From: Eremomyces bilateralis CBS 781.70
Lineage: Eukaryota
Length of the DNA stretch: 46,155 nucleotides
Reading direction: 5' to 3' (one strand)
NCBI GenBank assembly: GCA_010015585.1
Contig: ML975157.1
Shown: piece by piece, positions 26,656 to 46,155 of the stretch
Numbering within the stretch: the stretch's first letter is position 1
Layout of the letters: the number at the start of each line of letters is the position of its first letter
Program-made: the position numbers and the translations under genes
The notes under the pieces: generated by a model
What the model was told of the DNA's origin: nothing
The model's input: the letters and a program-made list of their open reading frames with translations, nothing else
Database searches by the model: none

Positions 26656-28550
26656 ATGGCAGAGACATGCATCGTGTGCCTCGGTGACCTGAACCACGGT
26701 CTTGCGAGACAGGCTTCAGTGCCTGGTGTCGCCGCCGCCAGGTCCGACTCCGTCACCGCGATAGCCAAAGATGCGAGCACGTCCGAGTCCGACGCAACCC
26801 CCGAAATCGTGGACGATGACCTCGTGGCTCATTTGCTGCCATGCGGGCATTATTTGCACGATAGCTGCTTGAAACCATGGGTGGAGAGGGCGAACAGTTG
26901 TCCGATATGTCGGGCCAGTTTTACGATGGTGGAGCTCAGTACCACCGTGGGAGGTACGCCTTTGGTTGGCGCAAAGCCAACTCCTCGACGTTTGGAATTC
27001 AAAGGAACTAACGTGGTCTCTAGGTGATGTACTATCAACATACGCAGTCGACGAAAAGCAACAAATGGCGGAGGTTGATCCCGGGCTAGTGGTGGACGAC
27101 GATATCTTCGACGAGGAACTCGGCGAGCCGTGCATGGTCTGCGAAGAGGTCGGCGAAGAGCACGAAGTGATCGTATGCGAGTACTGCGACGAACCGTGCC
27201 ACGTCTTTTGCGCCGGGTTCGACGAGGCGCCGGAGGGACCATGGATCTGCTACAAGTGCCGTGAACAGCAACAACAGACCCGATGGCGACAGGGGAGACG
27301 AGGACGACCGCCTCCAAGGCGAGGCGCGGCATCCCTGGCGTGGGAACGGGTGTGGCGATCGATCTTCAACCGCCTAGATTTCGACCTCGAGTTTCCTTTC
27401 GACGAAGAAGACCAGGCGCGCGTAGACGAGGCCGAACACCTCCCCGGTTGGCAGCGACGGCTGCAGATAGCCGCGTCCCAAGGGGCGGGCAACCGGTTCC
27501 GCGAGACGGCAGTCCTCGTGCATCCGAAGCCGGAACCAGAGTCGCAGGAGGAGATTCGCGCGTGGAACGCCTTCGACAAGGCGCGGCAGCTGGACGAGGA
27601 ACCGGGGAGTACGTCCGGGCGACGGAAGCGGAAGTCGGTAACGACGTCGCCCTCCGAGGCGCCCGCTGAACCGGAACGAAAGCTCAAACGTCCGCGGACG
27701 CGACGGCCGCCGGAGACGCATGACACCACGCCCGAAGAAGCCGCGTCGTCATCGCGCCGCGATTCCGCTCCTGGGACGTCGACGGCCCAACCACCATCAC
27801 TACCACTACTACCACCACCACCACCACCACCTCCCCCTCCCCATCGCAGCGGCATCGTCGAGAAACCAGAAGGCCCCAGCTTCCTCCAATCCCTCCTCAA
27901 GGAAGTCGAAGCCCCCACCCCCCACTNNNNNNNNNNNNNNNNNNNNNNNNNNNNNNNNNNNNNNNNNNNNNNNNNNNNNNNNNNNNNNNNNNNNNNNNNN
28001 NNNNNNNNNNNNNNNNNNNNNNNNNNNNNNNNNNNNNNNNNNNNNNNNNNNNNNNNNNNNNNNNNNNNNNNNNNNNNNNNNNNNNNNNNNNNNNNNNNNN
28101 NNNNNNNNNNNNNNNNNNNNNNNNNNNNNNNNNNNNNNNNNNNNNNNNNNNNNNNNNNNNNNNNNNNNNNNNNNNNNNNNNNNNNNNNNNNNNNNNNNNN
28201 NNNNNNNNNNNNNNNNNNNNNNNNNNNNNNNNNNNNNNNNNNNNNNNNNNNNNNNNNNNNNNNNNNNNNNNNNNNNNNNNNNNNNNNNNNNNNNNNNNNN
28301 NNNNNNNNNNNNNNNNNNNNNNNNNNNNNNNNNNNNNNNNNNNNNNNNNNNNNNNNNNNNNNNNNNCAGCAAGGAGCGGTACACGGAGATTAATCGGGAG
28401 GTGTCGCGGCGGATGTATGAGCGGGTGGGGGACGCGACAGGGTTAGCGGAGAGGGGGGCTAGGGAAATGTGGCAGCGGGTGGCGAGGGAGGAGGTAGAGA
28501 GGGCGGTGGTGGGGGGGAAAGAGGAGGGCGTGAAGGAAGAGGAGGGATAG
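26656..28550 (+). CDS. RING + PHD finger protein (PHRF1/Asr1-like), interrupted by assembly gap
   Basis: Exon 26656-26953, intron to 27023, then 27024 onward. RING-H2 CIVC...[10 protein letters not shown]...CPIC; PHD CMVC..CEYC..H..C..W.CYKC; C-terminal [18 protein letters not shown] after the gap. Confidence 0.85.
27927..28366. other. assembly gap (440 N)
   Basis: Run of N inside the RING-PHD coding region. Confidence 1.
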
Positions 28551-28838
28551 GGGGGATTTATGTTGAGCGGAGGTGTACGGCGAGGTCTTATGGATTGATT
28601 GGATATTTAGCTTGGAATGGCATAATTTATGTTTTGGATAATGAATAATACATTATCAGTGGCAAGGCAGACGGCTCTCTCAGATAATGCTCGTTTATGT
28701 GATAAATGTATCATAATACGTGAGATACCGGCATGACTATTCCAACTTTACCACACTTCATCGTCTTGACCCCCATTCTCATTTTAGATTCCACGAATCG
28801 TTTCCGACAGTTTCGAACCTTAATATCCCCCCTAGAGT

Positions 28839-30212
28839 TTAGACAGTAACCTCCGGGTTCTCCAACCTCCGCTTCGCCGTCCCCAACCCACTCACCCCCC
28901 TCTCCTGATTCTCCCCCAACCACGGCTTCTTCGCCTCCCCCAACCCGCCCTCGACCATGAAATACACGAACAGCCCAATCACAATCAGCACGAACGCGAT
29001 CGGATACATCCAGTGCACCGCATACTGAAACACCTTGATCCCGACCACCACGGTCCAGAAATTTGCCGTGAGCAGCCCGATGTTGAAGAACGCCGCGCTC
29101 GACATGCGAAACACAACCGGCGCGAGCGAGTAGAACGTGAAGAGGATCAGCGTGTACCCAACGAGGTAGCCGAACACGGGGCCGTCCCACACGGCGGCGC
29201 GGAAGGACGCGCGGTCGAAGATGGCGGCTTGCACGCCGTTGATCAACATGCCCCAGAAGGCCAGCTGCCCGACGACCTCGTACATGGGGCGGCGACTGAT
29301 CAGGAACTCTTCAAACACGTTGCTCAGGCCGTAGAAGGTGGCCGACAGCAAGCAGAAGAGGTCGCCGCGTACGGGGTCGGCGGCGGCGCCACCGTTGGTG
29401 CCTTGGAGGTGATCAGAAGCGATGAGCACGCCCATGCCGCCGATGCAGAGAAGGATGCCGACGTATTGGGTGAGGTGGTAGCGCACGCGGAGGAAGATGA
29501 GGGAGATGAGGACGACGACAACGATGGCCCAGAAGTTGATGAGTTGCGCGGACATGATAGTGGTGTAGCCATAGGCGAGGACGACGAAGTAGTTGCCTTC
29601 GACGTCCATGAAGGCGAAGATGAAATCTGGGGAGAAGGGTTAGTACCAGGAGGGAAGGGGTAGATGGGGAACGTACACTTCCACCCGTCTTTCAGAACCA
29701 CGTTCGCCCACTTCTTGAAACCGTAGCGGTAGATGGTGATGCTCGTATACACGATGTTCAACAGGACATAATTAAAAAACGTCTGAAAGGCGGGTATGTT
29801 CGTCCCCTTGTTGGCCAGCAAGTTCGAGAACGTGCCGGTGCCCACAAGACACAGCGCCAGGATCTGTCTGCACTCCCAACATCAGCGACCACTCTACTAT
29901 ACCTACTTCAACTCTTGCAGATATAACATACCCAAGCACCAACACGATCCAAAACTGCCTCGTCCGAAAATACGTGAAGATCCCCGCCTTCACCCTCGCC
30001 GGAGCTGCCGCCGTCCCCCCCGTCACCGACGCCGCGTCCGCGTCCGCTGTCTCGACGTCCCCCGCCTTGTCCGAATGGACGGTCCCATGAGGTCCCTCGA
30101 TCTCGTCGGCCGGTACGCCATCGCCTCGAGCGACGGGAGCCGAGCCGCCACCGTGTGCACCGACTGGCGCGTCCGGCGCGGATGGCGAAAAGCGGTCTTG
30201 CGAAGATGTCAT
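28839..30212 (-). CDS. SLC35F / DUF914 family drug-metabolite-type transporter
   Basis: Exons 30212-29932, 29867-29677, 29626-28839. PAFQTFFNYVLL, DVEGNYFVVLAY.YTTI.SAQL, GDLFCLLSATFYGLSNV.EE, SSAAFFN..LLTANFW; many hydrophobic helices. Confidence 0.9.
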
Positions 30213-40611: not shown

Positions 40612-41127
40612 TGTAATGATGGATTAGATCACCATGTCAAATTGTATGGCCCAAGTTAGGCTTCACGCTTAGTTCACTCGTGCAGTCGCACAAGACGATG
40701 CTGACGTAGCAAGTCTCGGTATGAGGGAATCGGAAAATATGGATTCGCCACAGCCGCGATTTGAAATTCTATCGCAGTAACCGTCTGCGGCGCAACTGTC
40801 GATTTTGACAATATTATTGTCCGATATCAATTCGGTTACGATTGAGGTTGAGACCCATCAGGCAACAAGGCATCTAATGTATCTGAGGCCAGAACATCGA
40901 TCCCTCTGGTTGATGAAAAATATCTACGAAGGGTGTTTTGGATCAGCAGAACAGGACGAGATCCCATTATTATTGCCATAATTAGATGATCTTCAGTTGG
41001 GTTCAAGTCACACTCGTATCATATGAGCACGATTAAGACGTTCATTATTCACGACTTTCATCGCTGGTATAAGTTCACTTTTTACATGTTCAACATCTAC
41101 CACCGAAGGTTAGGAGCCCTTGATCGA

Positions 41128-42480
41128 CTACAAGGCGTCCTCAAAGTCATCAGCGTCCGATTCCTCGTCGTCTCCTGCTTTATCTTCCACCTTTGCCGGA
41201 GGCGACTCGATCTTCACTCTCTTCGCCTCCCGTTCTTGGTCATCGAGTTCAGGTCCGGTTGACGTCCCATTCACAGCAGGGGCAACGACGTCCTCGAAAT
41301 CCTCATCTTCGTCTTCATCTTCATCGTCCTCCTCCTCCTCCTCCTCCTCTTCCGCCTCTTTGAGCGCCTGTCGTTCTTGTTCGGCCTTGAGTTGCTCAAA
41401 GTAGGCATCCAGACTGGGGTCTTTGATGTCCTCCCCTGCTTCGTCCCCGAATGATTGGGCTGCTCCATCGGCAGCTTGATCGTCTCGTGAACCTCCATCC
41501 GCTTGCCCGGCAATTGTTGGAGGTCCGGTAACTGTGGACTGTGTGTGCCAAACCGGTAGTTGATTTTGTTTCGCAATCCGTTCTTTATGGGCGGCGGCCG
41601 CAGCTTGCTCTGCCGCAGTTGTCTCGGAATGTGTTGTAATAGCAATCTCGATATTCTCAGGTCCTGTGGCAATTCCTCTCACAGCCGCGGGCTTGGCAAA
41701 CAGTTCGTTTGTTGTGGTTCTCATGGCTGGGTTCACCATCTCGTCCCGTGGCACGGGGACGGCCTCTGCAAGCGCATCTTCTCCCGTGACTTCGGGGACG
41801 ACGGAATCGTCGATCCGTTGCAGCAGAGTCAACAAATGTCCAAATTGCTTGTTGAACATCGCGGGACGATCATCGGCCTCACCGGCTGCATCTTCATCGT
41901 GCTTCAATTCTAGACCAAACCCGCATTTCTTGCACAGAAACCCGCTGCCGCTCCCAGATGGGTCAGGATTATCCAGGACTTCCATCAGCGTCCACTGCGA
42001 CTCGCAACGCTTGCAGATATATTCTTTCCGTTCGGTCGTCGGTCTCGCTTCCCGCTTGATCTCCTCGTCAAGCATGTGGATCCGATATTTCGTCGAGTCG
42101 ATCGCGCGGCGATAGTCGATGTAGAAGTACTCCCGAGTTATGGGCTTCTGCGCGCCCTCGCGGGTCTCCTGTCGCGCATGGCTATATCCAGATAGGTTAA
42201 CACTGTTTAGCTGTGCGCATAGCATGCATACATACACTGAAACCAGCCCGGCCTCCCGTAACTTGGCGCATAGCTTTTGAACGTTCTTGACTTGTTTGCC
42301 GGAGTCCATAACAACCGCAAGGTCGCTGAGGGACAGACTGCATCGAGTCAGCTTGGACATCGAAGCAGCGCATCATTCCACGTACGCCGAATGTCTCACT
42401 AGAGTATCAATGATCACGACATGTTCGGTCTCGTAGAAGGTACGAGCAACGCTCCGGACCAGAACCTGAGCGTAGTCCAT
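41128..42480 (-). CDS. TFA1: transcription initiation factor TFIIE alpha subunit
   Basis: Exons 42480-42386, 42337-42236, 42181-41128. LVRSVARTFY, YFYIDY...DSTKYR, zinc ribbon C..C/C..C, QNQLPVWHTQSTV, acidic tail. Confidence 0.92.
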
Positions 42481-43164
42481 GATATATGCCTCATGGAGAT
42501 GTTTCGTCGGCGTCAGCTGGCAAAGCCGTGGTGAGGATGCTAAATCGAAGTCCACTCTCCTCACGAACGGCGGTGGGAGTTGGATGGAAGAAATATGTGA
42601 GCCATGGGAGAATTCAGCTCACAGCATTTCAGTTTGATCCAAGTTCACTTGGGAAATGGGAATTTCCCAACGGTTCATTGTTCCCTTCTCAAAGAGCTGT
42701 TCAGCATTGTCGATGATCCAAATTCATCTTCACACGTGCATATCCTCAGTGCACGTGATATCAGGAGTCACAGCCAATCAAAGTGCGAGATTTCCAAATT
42801 CACTGTTTATCCGGAATTTTCATTGGGAGATGCTGCGTATTCCCTAAAGCACTAGACCTCGTGATCTACCTACAGGAACGACACTCATGTAGGGGCCACT
42901 AAGGAACACAGGGGCTAAGGAAGATGTATGGTTTTGCAATAGAACTATTTCGTAAAGGTTGCTAAAGTGAAGCAGCTTCGCTTCCACACTTGAGGCCCCA
43001 AGGGGGTCTACCAAGGACATCATTAAGTAAGCATAGATAACGGCACCCGTAGGTCGTAGCCGGCCGTAGGCCGTAGCATGGAACAATGATGATCTATCAA
43101 CCACAATTCAATTCATGCAACATCGTCAAGACGTAATAGTCTTGTCAAAACGGGCCATATTGAT

Positions 43165-44156
43165 TTACACAATAGGGAGTTGACTCATAAGACCATTCTT
43201 CTTCACCGCAACAAAGAGAGTCGCATTTCCCGGAGCAGTCGCAAAGTAAAGGTGGTTCCGCATCGCATCTCCTGAGAGCCGGTATTGTGCGCCCGTTCCA
43301 GGAAAAATTGCTGCGACTTCCTCAAACCACCCTGTAATAGAGGTACCATCCAGCTTGATAATTTGCATCTCTATCATGATCTGCTGCCAATATGCGATGC
43401 CATTGGCTGTCTCTATAGGATACGCACCAAGGTCGCCAAGGTACGTCAATGGATTGTACTGGAGTGCCGCTAAATCTATTAATAAGACGGTCTGAATATT
43501 TGAGCCAGTGTCGTTCATGATCTCGACGGCAGTAGTAATACTTGGGTCACCGCCAAACATCGCTGGGAGTCGGAACCTGGCAATGATCTTCCGACGTTGG
43601 AAAGCCACATGGTTGAGAGAGGTAATATACGTAGTTACCTCATGCATACTTCCAGAAGCATTTAACCTAAAAGGCGTTGCCTGCGCCATTTGTATAGCTC
43701 CCGACTATTATTACAGTCAACCCAAGGCTTTAGAATATAAATATTCTCTATTCGTAAGAACCTACTGCCAAAGCAGCTGGGTTTGACTGCATAAGTTGAT
43801 GGCCTATACTCTAGATGAAGTGAAAATGAGCCAAAGTAACGGAGATAAGGGTTGGGGAGACGGACCGCTTCTCTCCATATTGCTTTACCAGTAGAACCCT
43901 TGGGCATCTCGTCGACGACCACGCCATCTACAAGCCAAATAGTTTGGCCCGGTTCGGGAACTTTCCCACCATTCTCATAGTAGTCGACGAGATACTCAAT
44001 GTTCTTGCGCTGACGTTGCATCTGGATCGAATCGTCATTTAGTAGCTCCCGTAAGTAACCGAGCTTGAACTTGACAAGGTCAAAAGTTCCAACGCGGGCA
44101 GGCGAGAAAGTAATGTCTTCGCTTCGTTCTTCCGTTCGTGCTTCTTGGTCCAACAT
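43165..44156 (-). CDS. hypothetical protein with C-terminal retropepsin-like (clan AA) aspartic protease domain
   Basis: Exons 44156-43866, 43810-43766, 43704-43165 splice in frame to 291 aa. IMNDTGS catalytic motif (D at 43512-43510), flap-like IETANG, late RLSGDAMR segment. Confidence 0.7.
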
Positions 44157-44416
44157 GTTGAATGATTCTCAAAGAGTATGGAGATGGCTATAACACCAAA
44201 GGGATCTCAATTTAAGCCCTTAACCACAACACTGGCGCCCGCCTACAGATCGGCGTCGACCCCCAACATCATATAGGAAGCAGTGAATTTGTACCAGTTC
44301 GAATAATGCCCTCACGCAGACGAAATGCAGGAATAAAGGAATACATGTTGGGACAGGAATATTTCAAGCAGCCACTGGAGGTCAAAGGTATAGTAGCAGC
44401 AACACGACCATATATA

Positions 44417-44630
44417 TCAGGTACCGATGTCAGTATAAATATGCAAACCAGTAGCATCGAACGATATATCACGGAGTCTCATCCCAACTTAGCGTGTCTG
44501 CAGGCAGGCGCCGCTGCTTGCCTCCCAGATCTTGACCATGCTATCATGCGACGCGGAGGCAAGTCGGGTCGAGTCGTGTGAGAAGGCCACCGAGTTGACC
44601 ACATTGCTGTGCCCTCCAGCGTCTGCAGGG
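44417..44630 (-). pseudogene. relic of a HET-E/HET-D-type (NACHT-WD40) gene: last WD40 repeat and tail
   Basis: LQTLEG/(1-nt frameshift)/HSNVVNSVAFSHDSTRLASASHDSMVKIWEASSGACLQTR*VGMRLRDISFDATGLHIYTDIGT*. Confidence 0.85.
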
Positions 44631-45180
44631 AGGCGCGTCTTGAACTGGTTTGAAACATCCAGATGCGTCTGCCGGTGCCTACTTCAGGCCAACATATGCT
44701 GGTAACAAGGACTGGACTAATTAAGGATTACTTAGAGGAGGAGAGCCTCGAGTTTCGCCATTGACACACCCCCTTCGACATGCTTCAGTAATTGCTCAGA
44801 GCCAAGGGGAAATTGATTCAGGCAACGAGGCAGGAAGGTCATAAGCGACATGGACTGATCAGTGAGATCAGTACTCAGTAGGTCTGGTAGATCCAGTACT
44901 AGCCTCCAACCCGCCTGCTTTTCGATCGATACCTCTACATAATGTTCATGTATTCAATGGAGCCTGTCGTCTAGACACCTTGCCAATGGGCTCGGTAGCT
45001 GTGTGGTACAGACGGGACGTCACCTGACGAGGGCGGACTTGGCCTGTCACATAGCTAAGTAAGCAGGATGACCATAGATAGCTCACGAAGTCGCGATGCT
45101 TATAACGGGAGGTATTATTATGGGAAAGCTAGCAAAGGACGCGGAAAAGTAGGGGATCGGGTCACGTGGTTGAATAAGCC

Positions 45181-45470
45181 TACAGTTCGCCCCACCCTCA
45201 GATGAACTTTCGCATGAAAATCGCTAGTGAGGCTGCGGGTCGTCCCACTCTCAGATGACAATGCCGACCCTCAGATGAACTTTTCCTTCTCGCACTGCCT
45301 TGCACTAGCCGTTTATCAAGATGTCGTTAAGCAAGAATTAACTAAGAATATATCCCTAACTTAACTAACTTAATATATTAGTACCAAGTCTTAATGAACT
45401 GGGCTATAATAAATGTATTCCTAATGCATTATGCATAGGTTTTGGAAGGTTCATCTGAGAGTGAGAAGTA
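45181..45470. mobile_element. small non-autonomous DNA-transposon/MITE-like relic with inverted repeats and an AT-rich core
   Basis: CAC(C/T)CTCAGATGA(AC..) at 45193, 45246 and about 45267, with an inverted copy GAAGGTTCATCTGAGAGTG at 45445-45463; TpA-rich interior at about 45325-45430. Confidence 0.5.
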
Positions 45471-45699
45471 GTTTGGCTCGTGCGGGTCATGTGATGTGTT
45501 GCCATGGGGGTGAAGCTCCTTTCACACCCTGCTGTGCTCCATTCACACCCGTACCCCGCTCCATTTACACCCTACCTGGTCACATGACATACCAATCCCT
45601 TAGAATATCTGATGCAGATGGGCAAATATAACGTATTTGAGACTTCCCTATATAGGGAGGTACATCTACATGGTGCTAGGAGTAGTATCATGTAGTGGG

Positions 45700-46155
45700 G
45701 GCTACTTGACGAAGCTGAGATCTGCCTAGAAGAGGCAGGAAGATGAAAAGCTTGGAAACGGCATAAGCAGGGCGAAGATGAAATAGGGAATTACGATCGA
45801 CATTAGCAGAGCAAGATTCAGCGTGTTTCTTTCATAGGCTCTATGGCCTTAAGAGATGTATCATCAACTCATCAACAATGATAACGAGGACAAGAACGAG
45901 GACGAGGACGTATTTGAGACATCAATTCCAGTTTCCAGAATATATGCAATCGAGCTCGGTAGATGAGGAGATACGCAAAGCTCTTAAGCCGCTTCAGAAC
46001 GGTCTTGAGAATGTCTTTTACAATGCAATATCTGGAGCATTCTCTCGACTCCGCGAGCGCGACCTCTCGGATAACTCTCAGCATAATCAGAACGAGATCC
46101 CGCCACAGGATACCCTACATTCGCGTTCTAGCCTAGAAGAGTGGCTAGAAAGACC
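45700..46155 (+). pseudogene. probable degraded coding sequence of unknown product
   Basis: Protein-like pieces in different frames broken by stops or frameshifts (KAWKRHKQGEDE; EMYHQLINNDNEDKNEDED; FPEYMQSSSVDEEIRKALKPLQNGLENVFYNAISGAFSRLRE). Confidence 0.3.

What the first reader, a model, noticed from the sequence alone, without database searches (positions are those of the whole stretch)
43165..44156. Intact, spliced, stand-alone retropepsin-like protease fused to a small N-terminal domain
Seen: three exons with canonical introns give 291 aa that the ORF track splits in two. The C-terminal domain has a single hydrophobic-x-D-T-G-S motif, a TANG flap-like hairpin and a late (R)LSG segment. 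There is no signal peptide and no gag/RT/integrase nearby, and codon third positions look AT-richer than in the neighbouring core genes. Established: this motif order is typical of homodimeric clan AA (retroviral/Ddi1-like) proteases, not bilobed secreted pepsins. Inference: the N-terminal part (YYENGG..PGQTIWLVDGVVVDE) resembles the G-x-W/Y-V-A-x-x-G-x-V-V pattern I recall from DUF5678 proteins, which in prokaryotes often sit beside retropepsin-like genes. This could be a fused, possibly horizontally acquired, regulator-protease module of unknown function. It is the best candidate for an undescribed system in this window.
Basis: partly seen in the sequence, partly recalled or inferred. Interest (0 to 1): 0.78.

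Follow-up and report, generated by a model that had tools for sequence, protein, structure and literature searches.

The report
Uncharacterized fungal retropepsin-like two-domain protease gene
This is a real, spliced fungal gene for a small cytosolic protein that joins a domain of unknown fold to a retrovirus-type aspartic protease domain, and it belongs to a fast-evolving, unnamed family found across ascomycete fungi.

Summary
The gene is real (minus strand, ATG 44156 to stop 43165). Its C-terminal 140 aa model confidently (pLDDT 86.7). The best solved-structure matches are retroviral and bacterial retropepsins (FIV protease Z 10.3). The Asp of N-D-T-G-S is kept in 55 of 56 relatives, and L-S-G in 64 of 64.

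The N-terminal ~97-aa domain lies upstream of the protease domain in 18 of 24 related loci and in annotated proteins from Penicillium, Lipomyces, Geoglossum and others. All of these are named 'hypothetical'.

The exon model needs correcting. The best model has four exons and 274 aa, not three exons and 291 aa. A cDNA-like public contig lacks introns 1 and 3 but retains intron 2.

The DUF5678 link is not supported: 0 of 148 Pfam hits, and profile-profile probability under 1%. However, cyanobacteria do carry DUF5678–retropepsin fusions in the same domain order.

No gag, RT or integrase lies nearby, and conserved intron positions argue against recent bacterial transfer.

New observation: the family is multi-copy in some fungi. 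Young paralogs change protein sequence quickly (dN/dS about 1–2) while sparing conserved core positions.

Catalysis, dimerisation and biological role are untested. Verdict: an undescribed variant of a known kind, of moderate interest.

The parts
43866..44156 (-). Exon 1 (97 codons from ATG 44156). Encodes the N-terminal domain: a disordered first ~25 aa, two helices, and a small beta-sheet that includes the TIWLVDGVVVDE hairpin.
   Evidence: ORF. AF2 model pLDDT 80. 179 clusters match its profile at E<=1e-3. The exon ends at REA|GTCCGT, and relatives show V-C read-through there.
43811..43865 (-). Intron 1, 55 nt, GTCCGT...ATCTAG.
   Evidence: A ~97% identical contig of run X1 joins 43866 to 43810 (skips 55, GT..AG on the gene strand).
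43766..43810 (-). Exon 2, a 45-nt micro-exon (SIGHQLMQSNPAALA).
   Evidence: Joined to exon 1 in the X1 contig. The motif (I)G.QLMQ(S/T) is present in the annotated proteins P0091 (Lipomyces), P0114 (Trichoglossum) and P0072 (Rhinocladiella).
43705..43765 (-). Intron 2, 61 nt, GTAGGT...TAATAG. It contains an in-frame TAG and must be removed to fuse the two domains.
   Evidence: Frame logic and homologs with a contiguous micro-exon plus linker. Not confirmed: the X1 contig retains these bases.
43639..43704 (-). Exon 3, 66 nt, linker (SGAIQMAQATPFRLNASGSMHE).
   Evidence: Conserved as ..Q(M/I/L)AQSTSFG....MHE in relatives.
43588..43638 (-). Intron 3, 51 nt, GTAACT...CGGAAG. It is in frame without a stop, so ORF finders read through it.
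   Evidence: The X1 contig lacks it. Homologs read MHE|IFARFRL. An intron with a CTAAC-like branch sits at the same place in the relatives shown.
43165..43587 (-). Exon 4: 140 codons plus TAA. Encodes the retropepsin-fold domain.
   Evidence: AF2 pLDDT 86.7, pTM 0.79. All 50 listed top Foldseek PDB rows are retropepsins. VIA Z: 10.3 FIV PR, 9.8 HTLV PR, 9.1 Rickettsia APRc.
43501..43515 (-). N-D-T-G-S, the putative catalytic motif (Asp is residue 160 of the 274-aa model).
   Evidence: Among sequences covering it: N 55/56, D 55/56, T 54/56, G 54/56, S 47/56.
43399..43410 (-). T-A-N-G at the tip of the flap-like beta-hairpin (strands 52-60 and 63-77 of the domain).
   Evidence: T 59/64 and G 63/64. 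Secondary structure. hhalign places it on the cyanobacterial 'ETIGG'.
43270..43281 (-). R-L-S-G, the counterpart of the retropepsin hydrophobic-hydrophobic-Gly motif. It is followed by a helix and the near-invariant YFATAPGN.
   Evidence: L, S and G are each 64/64, and R is 62/64.

Best explanation
The locus is a four-exon gene for a 274-aa cytosolic protein. It belongs to an unnamed family spread across Ascomycota.

Shown: the C-terminal 140 aa adopt the single-lobe retropepsin fold. They carry a conserved Asp-Thr-Gly, a flap hairpin and a Leu-Ser-Gly motif. The ~97-aa N-terminal domain (two helices plus a small sheet, with no match to any known fold or Pfam family) is joined to the protease domain through a ~37-aa linker. 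This order is conserved.

Inferred: like other retropepsins, the protein acts as a homodimeric aspartic endopeptidase, with one Asp contributed by each subunit. The N-domain and linker act as a regulatory, targeting or pro-segment part, and may be removed by self-cleavage.

Shown for relatives: the family is multi-copy in some fungi, with tandem and inverted copies and decayed copies. Young paralogs replace amino acids at about or above the synonymous rate while sparing family-conserved positions. This suggests changing substrate or partner specificity. The biological target is unknown.
For: Gene and family: 64 of 88 candidates match at E<=1e-3. The N-domain profile finds 179 clusters at E<=1e-3 and 58 at <=1e-10.

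Fused order: the N-exon lies 170-280 nt upstream of the protease domain in 18 of 24 metagenome loci. Named full-length proteins come from Penicillium, Lipomyces, Geoglossum, Trichoglossum, Emydomyces, Niveomyces, Sarea and Cirrosporium.

Fold: (pLDDT 86.7). (top 50 rows all retropepsins; best E 1.8e-3, TM about 0.5). (Z 10.3, 9.8, 9.3, 9.1 and 9.0 for FIV, HTLV, RSV, Rickettsia APRc and EIAV proteases; bilobed pepsins Z 5-7).

Motif conservation. In the Atlas structure search, seven of the ten listed structural neighbours are clusters that carry retropepsin-type Pfam families.

Splicing: the contig lacks introns 1 and 3.

Selection: dN/dS is 0.25-0.38 between clades but 1.0-2.2 (C-domain) and 0.95-5 (N-domain) within one young paralog group. 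Ts/tv of 1.0-2.0 there argues against RIP. Only 5 of 40 family-conserved columns vary in that group, against 59 of 89 other columns (Fisher p=1e-8).
Against: No sequence model recognises the protein. Pfam gave 0 hits for the window pieces at E<=1. Only 1 of 7 homologs gave a sub-threshold gag-asp_proteas hit (E 0.014). NCBIfam gave nothing above noise. A profile search of PDB sequences gave 0 hits.

Foldseek E-values are modest (1.8e-3 at best) and TM is about 0.5. The G-R-D/N part of the third retropepsin motif is absent (L-S-G-D-A). Catalysis and dimerisation were not shown.

Intron 2 is retained in the only cDNA-like contig, and that contig's run type is a guess. If intron 2 is not removed, the protease domain is not fused to the N-domain.

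dN/dS near 1 can also mean relaxed constraint. Counts are small and the method is pairwise Nei-Gojobori only. Several related copies are clearly decayed.
Confidence: 0.6

Rival explanations
1. Non-catalytic retropepsin-fold module. The domain keeps the fold and serves as a binding or scaffold unit rather than an enzyme.
For: There is no Pfam or PDB sequence match. The third motif lacks the R-D/N of G-R-D/N. A retropepsin-fold ribosomal protein is among the structural matches (7ane_ao, Z 8.9).
Against: N-D-T-G-S is kept in 54-55 of 56 sequences for N, D, T and G. The flap Gly is kept in 63 of 64 and L-S-G in 64 of 64. This includes fast-evolving paralogs and is the pattern expected for an active site.
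Confidence: 0.15
2. Relic or domesticated protease of an LTR retrotransposon, or a gene carried by some other mobile element. This would explain the copy-number changes and decayed copies.
For: The best structural matches are retroviral proteases. Relatives are multi-copy, with tandem (L009) and inverted (L005) copies. Repeat units of 1.2-1.5 kb begin and end at similar places in several copies. Other repeats lie nearby. One copy pair is RIP-like (L006/L011, ts/tv 12). Graph branching in run X1 suggests more than one copy. GC3 is low.
Against: None of 83 flanking ORFs in 10 related loci, and none of 62 window ORFs, matches RT, integrase, gag or a transposase. There are no LTR-like repeats around the gene. 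No long fused forms were found (3 of 709 candidates, all 247-332 aa). Spliceosomal introns sit at conserved places. Neighbours are ordinary, non-syntenic fungal genes. Bacterial retropepsins score nearly as well as retroviral ones (APRc Z 9.1).
Confidence: 0.12
3. One reading: a DUF5678-type regulator fused to a retropepsin, acquired horizontally from prokaryotes.
For: Cyanobacteria carry exactly this domain order. DUF5678 was found in 45 of 301 genomes searched. In 19 of 30 fetched loci a single 191-269-aa frame holds DUF5678 followed by a D-S-G-A domain. An Atlas cluster with PF18929 (85% of members) plus PF13650 (88%) is a structural neighbour of the C-domain (TM 0.65). hhalign aligns the two protease domains in the correct register (DTGS/DSGA, TAxG/TIGG), though weakly (E 0.058, probability 0.9%). 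GC3 is lower than in neighbouring genes.
Against: No PF18929 match was listed for the window piece or for any of 148 N-domain relatives. N-domain versus DUF5678 proteins gave hhalign probability 0.3%, and the aligned stretch lies outside DUF5678. The N-domain has an extra helical hairpin. Conserved introns and a spread over Eurotiomycetes, Sordariomycetes, Geoglossomycetes, Lipomycetes and others indicate long residence in fungi.
Confidence: 0.07

Closest known systems
Retroviral and LTR-retroelement proteases (MEROPS family A2; Pfam RVP PF00077). Family names are recalled; the matches are.
   Same: Single-lobe beta-barrel fold. One D-T/S-G per chain, preceded by hydrophobic residues. A flap hairpin with Gly at the tip. 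A late hydrophobic-x-Gly followed by a helix. N- and C-terminal strands placed where retropepsins form their dimer sheet. Best Z 10.3 (FIV PR; rmsd 3.1 over 99 residues).
   Different: Not part of a gag-pol polyprotein and has no RT or integrase nearby. Contains spliceosomal introns. About 11-15% identity and no HMM match. Has D-T-G-S-N and L-S-G-D-A rather than G-R-D/N. Carries an extra C-terminal beta-hairpin (YFATAPGN...KKNG..QLPVV) and an unrelated N-terminal domain.
Prokaryotic retropepsin-like proteases: Rickettsia APRc (PDB 5c9b), Pseudomonas RloA2 (9g59), and Pfam Asp_protease_2 / gag-asp_proteas, including the cyanobacterial DUF5678-retropepsin fusions.
   Same: Cellular, stand-alone retropepsin-fold proteins of similar size (APRc Z 9.1, RloA2 Z 7.1). 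The cyanobacterial fusions share the order 'small N-terminal domain - linker - protease' and a total length of about 210-270 aa.
   Different: The N-domains show no detectable homology. The protease domains are only marginally alignable. The fungal family is eukaryotic, contains introns, and has neither a signal peptide nor a membrane anchor.
Ddi1 retroviral-protease-like domain (MEROPS A28), to my knowledge the only well-known cellular retropepsin of fungi (recalled).
   Same: A eukaryotic cytosolic retropepsin-fold domain flanked by other domains. Structural match Z 7.2 (7d66).
   Different: No ubiquitin-like or UBA domain: the N-domain matched nothing in PDB or BFVD. The structural score is lower than for viral proteases. 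The family is multi-copy and fast-evolving, unlike what I recall of Ddi1, a conserved, usually single-copy gene.

Membership tests
Clan AA retropepsin-fold aspartic peptidases | Single-lobe retropepsin beta-barrel fold | tested here: met
   AF2 pLDDT 86.7. All 50 listed Foldseek PDB rows are retropepsins. VIA Z 9-10.3 for five retroviral or bacterial retropepsins.
Clan AA retropepsin-fold aspartic peptidases | Catalytic Asp in a conserved D-T/S-G-A/S motif | tested here: met
   D-T-G-S at 43501-43512. D 55/56, T 54/56, G 54/56, S 47/56 (plus C 8/56).
Clan AA retropepsin-fold aspartic peptidases | Flap hairpin with conserved Gly, and a late hydrophobic-hydrophobic-Gly motif | tested here: met
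   Hairpin 52-60/63-77 with T-A-N-G at its tip (G 63/64). L-S-G is 64/64. The R-D/N that follows Gly in many retropepsins is absent.
Clan AA retropepsin-fold aspartic peptidases | Homodimer that forms the active site; proteolytic activity | not testable with these tools
   Needs biochemistry or an experimental structure; see Tried and rejected.
Pfam retropepsin families (RVP PF00077, RVP_2, Asp_protease_2 PF13650, gag-asp_proteas PF13975) | Score above the family's gathering threshold | tested here: not met
   0 hits for the window pieces at E<=1. Of 7 homologs, 1 had gag-asp_proteas at 16.4 bits against a 28.2-bit cut-off. The NCBIfam clan_AA_DTGA hit was 13 bits against 57.95.
DUF5678 (PF18929) | Match of the N-terminal domain to the DUF5678 model or to DUF5678 proteins | tested here: not met
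   No PF18929 match for the window piece, for 34 relatives at E<=0.01, or among the 25 families listed for 148 members at E<=10. hhalign against 20 cyanobacterial DUF5678 proteins gave probability 0.3%.
LTR-retrotransposon / retroviral polyprotein protease | Embedded in or adjacent to gag, RT, RNase H and integrase, and flanked by LTRs | tested here: not met
   0 of 62 window ORFs and 0 of 83 ORFs beside relatives match these families. No long repeats in 41000-46155. No long fused forms.
Ddi1-like (A28) | N-terminal ubiquitin-like domain (and often a C-terminal UBA) around the protease domain | tested here: inconclusive
   No UBL or UBA Pfam hit. The N-domain model has two helices plus three short strands, and its best match among solved structures is Z 4.5. 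A missing structural match does not exclude a fold.
Pepsin-like bilobed A1 peptidases | Two homologous lobes of about 320 aa with two D-T/S-G motifs; usually a signal peptide | tested here: not met
   One lobe of 140 aa with one D-T-G. Pepsins match only one lobe, at Z 5-7. The N-terminus is hydrophilic.

The most novel reading that the evidence does not exclude
The family is a conflict-type protease (immunity, allorecognition or a selfish element) whose specificity region is under diversifying selection. Its dose would be set the way retroelements set Gag against Gag-Pro. Most transcripts would give only the N-domain, and a minority would give the N-domain-protease fusion. The switch would be retention of intron 2 in the window's lineage, and a conserved in-frame TAG (read through or re-initiated) in the L001 group of relatives.
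Probability: 0.1. Interest if true: 0.8.

Novelty: new variant of a known kind. Interest (0 to 1): 0.55.

Why it matters
To my knowledge, cellular stand-alone retropepsins are few: Ddi1 and SASPase in eukaryotes, and APRc and a handful of others in bacteria (recalled). In the text libraries searched I found no paper describing this family. Every named database record I saw calls it 'hypothetical' or 'uncharacterized'.

If it is active, the family would be a second, lineage-specific cytosolic retropepsin of ascomycetes, paired with a new partner domain. It would also be an unusually dynamic one: copy-number change, tandem copies, decay, and fast protein change that spares the active-site core. 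That pattern is typical of genes engaged with changing partners or targets. The family is therefore a tractable entry point for asking what cellular retropepsins do in fungi.

The parallel with cyanobacterial DUF5678-retropepsin fusions suggests that 'small N-terminal domain plus retropepsin' may be a recurrent design.

Tried and rejected
1. Homodimer prediction (two copies of the C-domain). The verdict was 'no answer' (score 0.12, mark 0.32), so it says nothing for or against dimerisation.

2. RNA evidence. No listed holder is on record as RNA. One run (X1; type guessed as RNA, held as contigs) held 0.39 of the sampled words. Laying it gave junction evidence but cannot give expression level. 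Parts without cover (42900-43052) are not evidence.

3. No whole genome is held for the window, so copy number in the source genome could not be counted.

4. The word-based search with the N-exon found only 1 of 2 candidates. The exhaustive profile search was needed.

5. N-domain fold searches found nothing: VIA wide best Z 4.5, BFVD best E 1.6, Foldseek PDB best E 2.4. This does not prove a new fold.

6. The Atlas feature hits for the N-domain (DndB-like clusters, 0.90-0.92, with recognition below the tool's bar) were treated as noise.

7. P0139 (2475 aa) and P0180 (1247 aa) are repeat proteins with many short matched stretches. They were dropped as false positives before alignment A4.

8. 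Single-intron models were rejected. These were 43765-43698 (307 aa), 43761-43667 (298 aa) and a single 161-nt intron 43865-43705 (259 aa). The X1 contig uses the acceptor at 43811, and homologs carry the micro-exon motif.

9. RIP as the cause of the high dN/dS was rejected for the L002 group (ts/tv 1.0-2.0).

10. Earlier-findings look-ups returned nothing.

Full report
1. What is in the sequence.

On the minus strand, two stop-to-stop frames abut: 43662..44168 (168 aa) and 43165..43704 (179 aa). The upstream frame starts with ATG at 44156. The downstream frame ends with TAA at 43165-43167. The downstream frame holds N-D-T-G-S (43501-43515), T-A-N-G (43399-43410) and R-L-S-G (43270-43281). Neither piece matches any Pfam family at E<=1.

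The window is an ordinary fungal chromosomal region. It carries DNA ligase, a KH protein, a PX/Vps5 protein, an EF-G-like GTPase, SLC35F, PP4R3, an alpha/beta hydrolase and SRP72. None of the 62 ORFs scanned matches gag, RT or integrase. No long repeats flank the gene.

2. Gene model.

Three kinds of evidence refine it.

(a) Homologs read '...SMHE|IFARFRL...' where the window reads SMHE-VTTYITSLNHVAFQRRK-IIARFRL. The extra 17 codons are therefore a 51-nt in-frame intron (43638-43588, GTAACT..CGGAAG). Relatives have an intron with a CTAAC-type branch at the same spot.

(b) A public run (coded X1; type guessed as RNA; held as contigs) contains a 571-nt contig about 97% identical to the gene. That contig lacks exactly 43811-43865 and 43588-43638 but retains 43705-43765.

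(c) The 45-nt micro-exon between introns 1 and 2 (SIGHQLMQSNPAALA) has clear counterparts in annotated proteins. These are Lipomyces orientalis (RIGLQLMQTTQ...), Trichoglossum hirsutum (..YQLMQTAQ..) and Rhinocladiella mackenziei (..FHQLIQSGQ..).

The best model is therefore four exons: 44156-43866, 43810-43766, 43704-43639 and 43587-43165. That is 822 coding nt and 274 aa with no internal stop.

Intron 2 contains an in-frame stop, and the downstream frame is shifted by one base. The fusion therefore needs intron 2 to be spliced out. Its removal has not been seen directly.

3. The C-terminal domain is a retropepsin.

I built an alignment of the 140 aa of exon 4 with 63 relatives (A1). With it, AlphaFold2 gives pLDDT 86.7 and pTM 0.79, an all-beta domain with two short helices.

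- Foldseek against the PDB: all 50 listed rows are retropepsins. They include Rous sarcoma virus PR (E 1.8e-3), XMRV, Rickettsia APRc, FIV, HTLV and HIV, with TM about 0.4-0.6.
- The Foldseek-independent search over 48,161 chains gives FIV PR Z 10.3, HTLV PR 9.8, RSV PR 9.3, APRc 9.1 and EIAV PR 9.0. The Ddi1 protease domain scores 7.2, and bilobed pepsins score 5-7 on one lobe.
- Conservation fits an active site. D is kept in 55 of 56 sequences covering it, T 54/56, G 54/56, the flap Gly 63/64, and L-S-G 64/64. YFATAPGN is near-invariant.
- No sequence model sees the domain. The only signals are sub-threshold hits on one divergent homolog (gag-asp_proteas E 0.014; clan_AA_DTGA E 0.091).

4. 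The N-terminal domain and the fusion.

The N-exon profile (A3, 18 sequences) finds 179 clusters at E<=1e-3 among 1.84 billion representatives. Most are exon-1-sized ORFs. The longer hits include N-domain-plus-protease proteins: P0091 266 aa, P0114 242, P0119 332, P0178 232 and P0124 635.

In 18 of 24 related metagenome loci, the N-exon lies 170-280 nt upstream of the protease exon. Of the other six loci, three have under 300 nt upstream of the match (L008, L013, L024). The other three hold only fragments (L020, L022, L023).

The N-domain model (pLDDT 80) has a disordered start, helices at 27-39 and 44-61, and strands at 73-76, 79-81 and 93-96. It matches nothing convincingly in PDB or BFVD: best Z 4.5, E 2.4 and E 1.6.

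5. The DUF5678 idea.

No PF18929 match was listed for the window piece, for 34 relatives at E<=0.01, or among the 25 families listed for 148 family members at E<=10.

An Atlas cluster of cyanobacterial 208-aa proteins carries PF18929 (85% of members) plus PF13650 (88%), and it is a structural neighbour of the C-domain (TM 0.65). DUF5678 was found in 45 of 301 cyanobacterial genomes searched. In 19 of the 30 loci fetched, one frame of 191-269 aa has DUF5678 at the N-terminus followed by a D-S-G-A retropepsin domain.

I ran profile-profile comparison of fungal full-length proteins (A6) against 20 of these cyanobacterial proteins (A5: 16 of the 19 fused forms plus 4 short ones). It aligns only the protease parts. 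The register is sensible, but the score is insignificant (probability 0.9%, E 0.058). The N-domain alone gives probability 0.3%, aligned to a non-DUF5678 stretch.

So the architecture is parallel, but homology of the N-domains is not supported.

6. Origin and context.

The 'longer' search found 3 of 709 candidates, all 247-332 aa, so no polyproteins appeared. Flanks of 10 related loci carry ordinary and different fungal genes: RIO1, sugar transporters, IDO, bystin, ThiF, ankyrin proteins, a weak HET hit and others. None of the 83 ORFs is RT, integrase, gag or a transposase.

Named members span Eurotiomycetes, Sordariomycetes, Geoglossomycetes, Sarea, Cirrosporium and Lipomyces. Together with the conserved intron positions, this argues against a recent bacterial transfer.

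GC3 is indeed lower (0.489) than in most long neighbouring ORFs (0.56-0.76). That alone does not show transfer.

7. Family dynamics (new here).

Relatives occur as a head-to-tail tandem (L009) and as an inverted pair with one decayed copy (L005). Some copies carry stops or deletions (L011, L012, L013, L020, L021, L024). L011 differs from L006 by 24 transitions and 2 transversions, which looks like RIP.

Between clades, pairwise dN/dS is 0.25-0.38. Within the young L002 group it is 1.0-2.2 for the protease domain and 0.95-5 for the N-domain. Ts/tv there is 1.0-2.0. These copies are not decaying at random. Only 5 of 40 columns that are identical in five distant members vary within the group, against 59 of 89 other columns (p=1e-8). 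By eye, much of the change lies around the flap.

The X1 copy differs from the window by 10 amino-acid-changing and 4 silent codon changes, plus TAA to TAG at the stop.

These are rough pairwise estimates on small counts. They suggest diversifying or relaxed selection on a still-functional protein.

8. A second oddity.

In six loci that share one sample prefix (L001, L003-L006, L011), introns 1 and 2 are absent. The N-domain frame runs in phase into a conserved TAG, six codons before the conserved Q-M-A-Q of the linker ('...SPSAF*SEAAQMAQSTSF...'). A 12-nt in-frame indel lies upstream. I found no canonical intron that can remove the TAG.

In this group the N-domain has dN/dS 0.16-0.39 (one pair 0.93) and the protease domain 0.4-1.0. 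Conserved columns are still spared (7 of 43 against 34 of 87, p=0.009). The four copies that look intact keep ATG at Q-M-A-Q. The two that look damaged have ATA there.

Read-through, re-initiation or slow decay all remain possible. Together with the retained intron 2 in the X1 contig, this feeds the speculative two-product reading in the section on the most novel reading.

9. Verdict.

The protease reading is well supported at the level of fold and motifs. The fused N-domain is real and conserved but is not demonstrably DUF5678. Horizontal acquisition is unsupported. The family is undescribed in the text libraries I could search (listings and abstracts only, no paper read in full). It has unusual evolutionary dynamics. 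Function, dimerisation and targets remain inferred.

Noticed in passing
L001:2113-2262, L003:168-329, L004:3801-3950, L005:2942-3103, L006:145-306, L011:1423-1584: In six related copies that share one sample prefix, the N-domain frame continues in phase into a conserved TAG, six codons before the linker's Q-M-A-Q. No canonical intron can remove it, and a 12-nt in-frame indel lies upstream. Both flanking domains still show some constraint.
   Followed up: partly
L002, L007, L008, L009, L010, L021 (about 1.2-kb units, e.g. L002:567-1791): Young paralogs with 8-17% DNA divergence have dN/dS of 1 or more in both domains and an ordinary ts/tv, yet they spare family-conserved columns (5 of 40 against 59 of 89). 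L009 holds two units head to tail.
   Followed up: partly
L006 vs L011; L005:1129-1949 (minus strand): L011 differs from L006 by 24 transitions and 2 transversions and has gained stops, which looks like RIP. L005 carries an inverted, decayed second copy about 750 nt upstream of the intact one.
   Followed up: partly
window 44489-44683 (-): A solitary WD40 repeat (Pfam WD40, E 9.2e-10) lies about 330 nt upstream of the gene's ATG. Its sequence (..VNSVAFSHDSTRLASASHDSMVKIWEASSGACLQT.) recalls, from memory, the repeats of fungal NACHT-WD40 (NLR-like) proteins. It appears to be an orphan fragment.
   Followed up: partly
window 43077-44200 as seen in run X1: Contigs of X1 are identical to the window over 43970-44400 but 3-5% different over 43077-43968. 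The assembly graph branches at 43267, at 43292-43321 and at 44171-44200. Loose ends do not match the window. That organism probably has more than one copy or allele of the gene.
   Followed up: partly
L145-L174 (cyanobacterial genomes G001 and others): DUF5678 was found in 45 of 301 cyanobacterial genomes searched. In 19 of 30 fetched loci it is the N-terminal part of a 191-269-aa protein whose C-terminal part is a D-S-G-A retropepsin. The others are short stand-alone or truncated frames.
   Followed up: partly
Atlas result for window:43168-43587:- (structure row 3): A large Ascomycota cluster (356 members, 531 aa, no Pfam name) has a part that superposes on the protease domain (TM 0.77 by query). 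The fold may therefore also sit inside a longer fungal protein family.
   Followed up: no
window 26850-28610: An AT-rich stretch (GC 0.33 in 28001-29000) has long open frames on both strands and an (ACC)14 run at 27790-27831. One frame (26873-28390, +) has a PHD finger. It looks like a low-complexity coding region.
   Followed up: no
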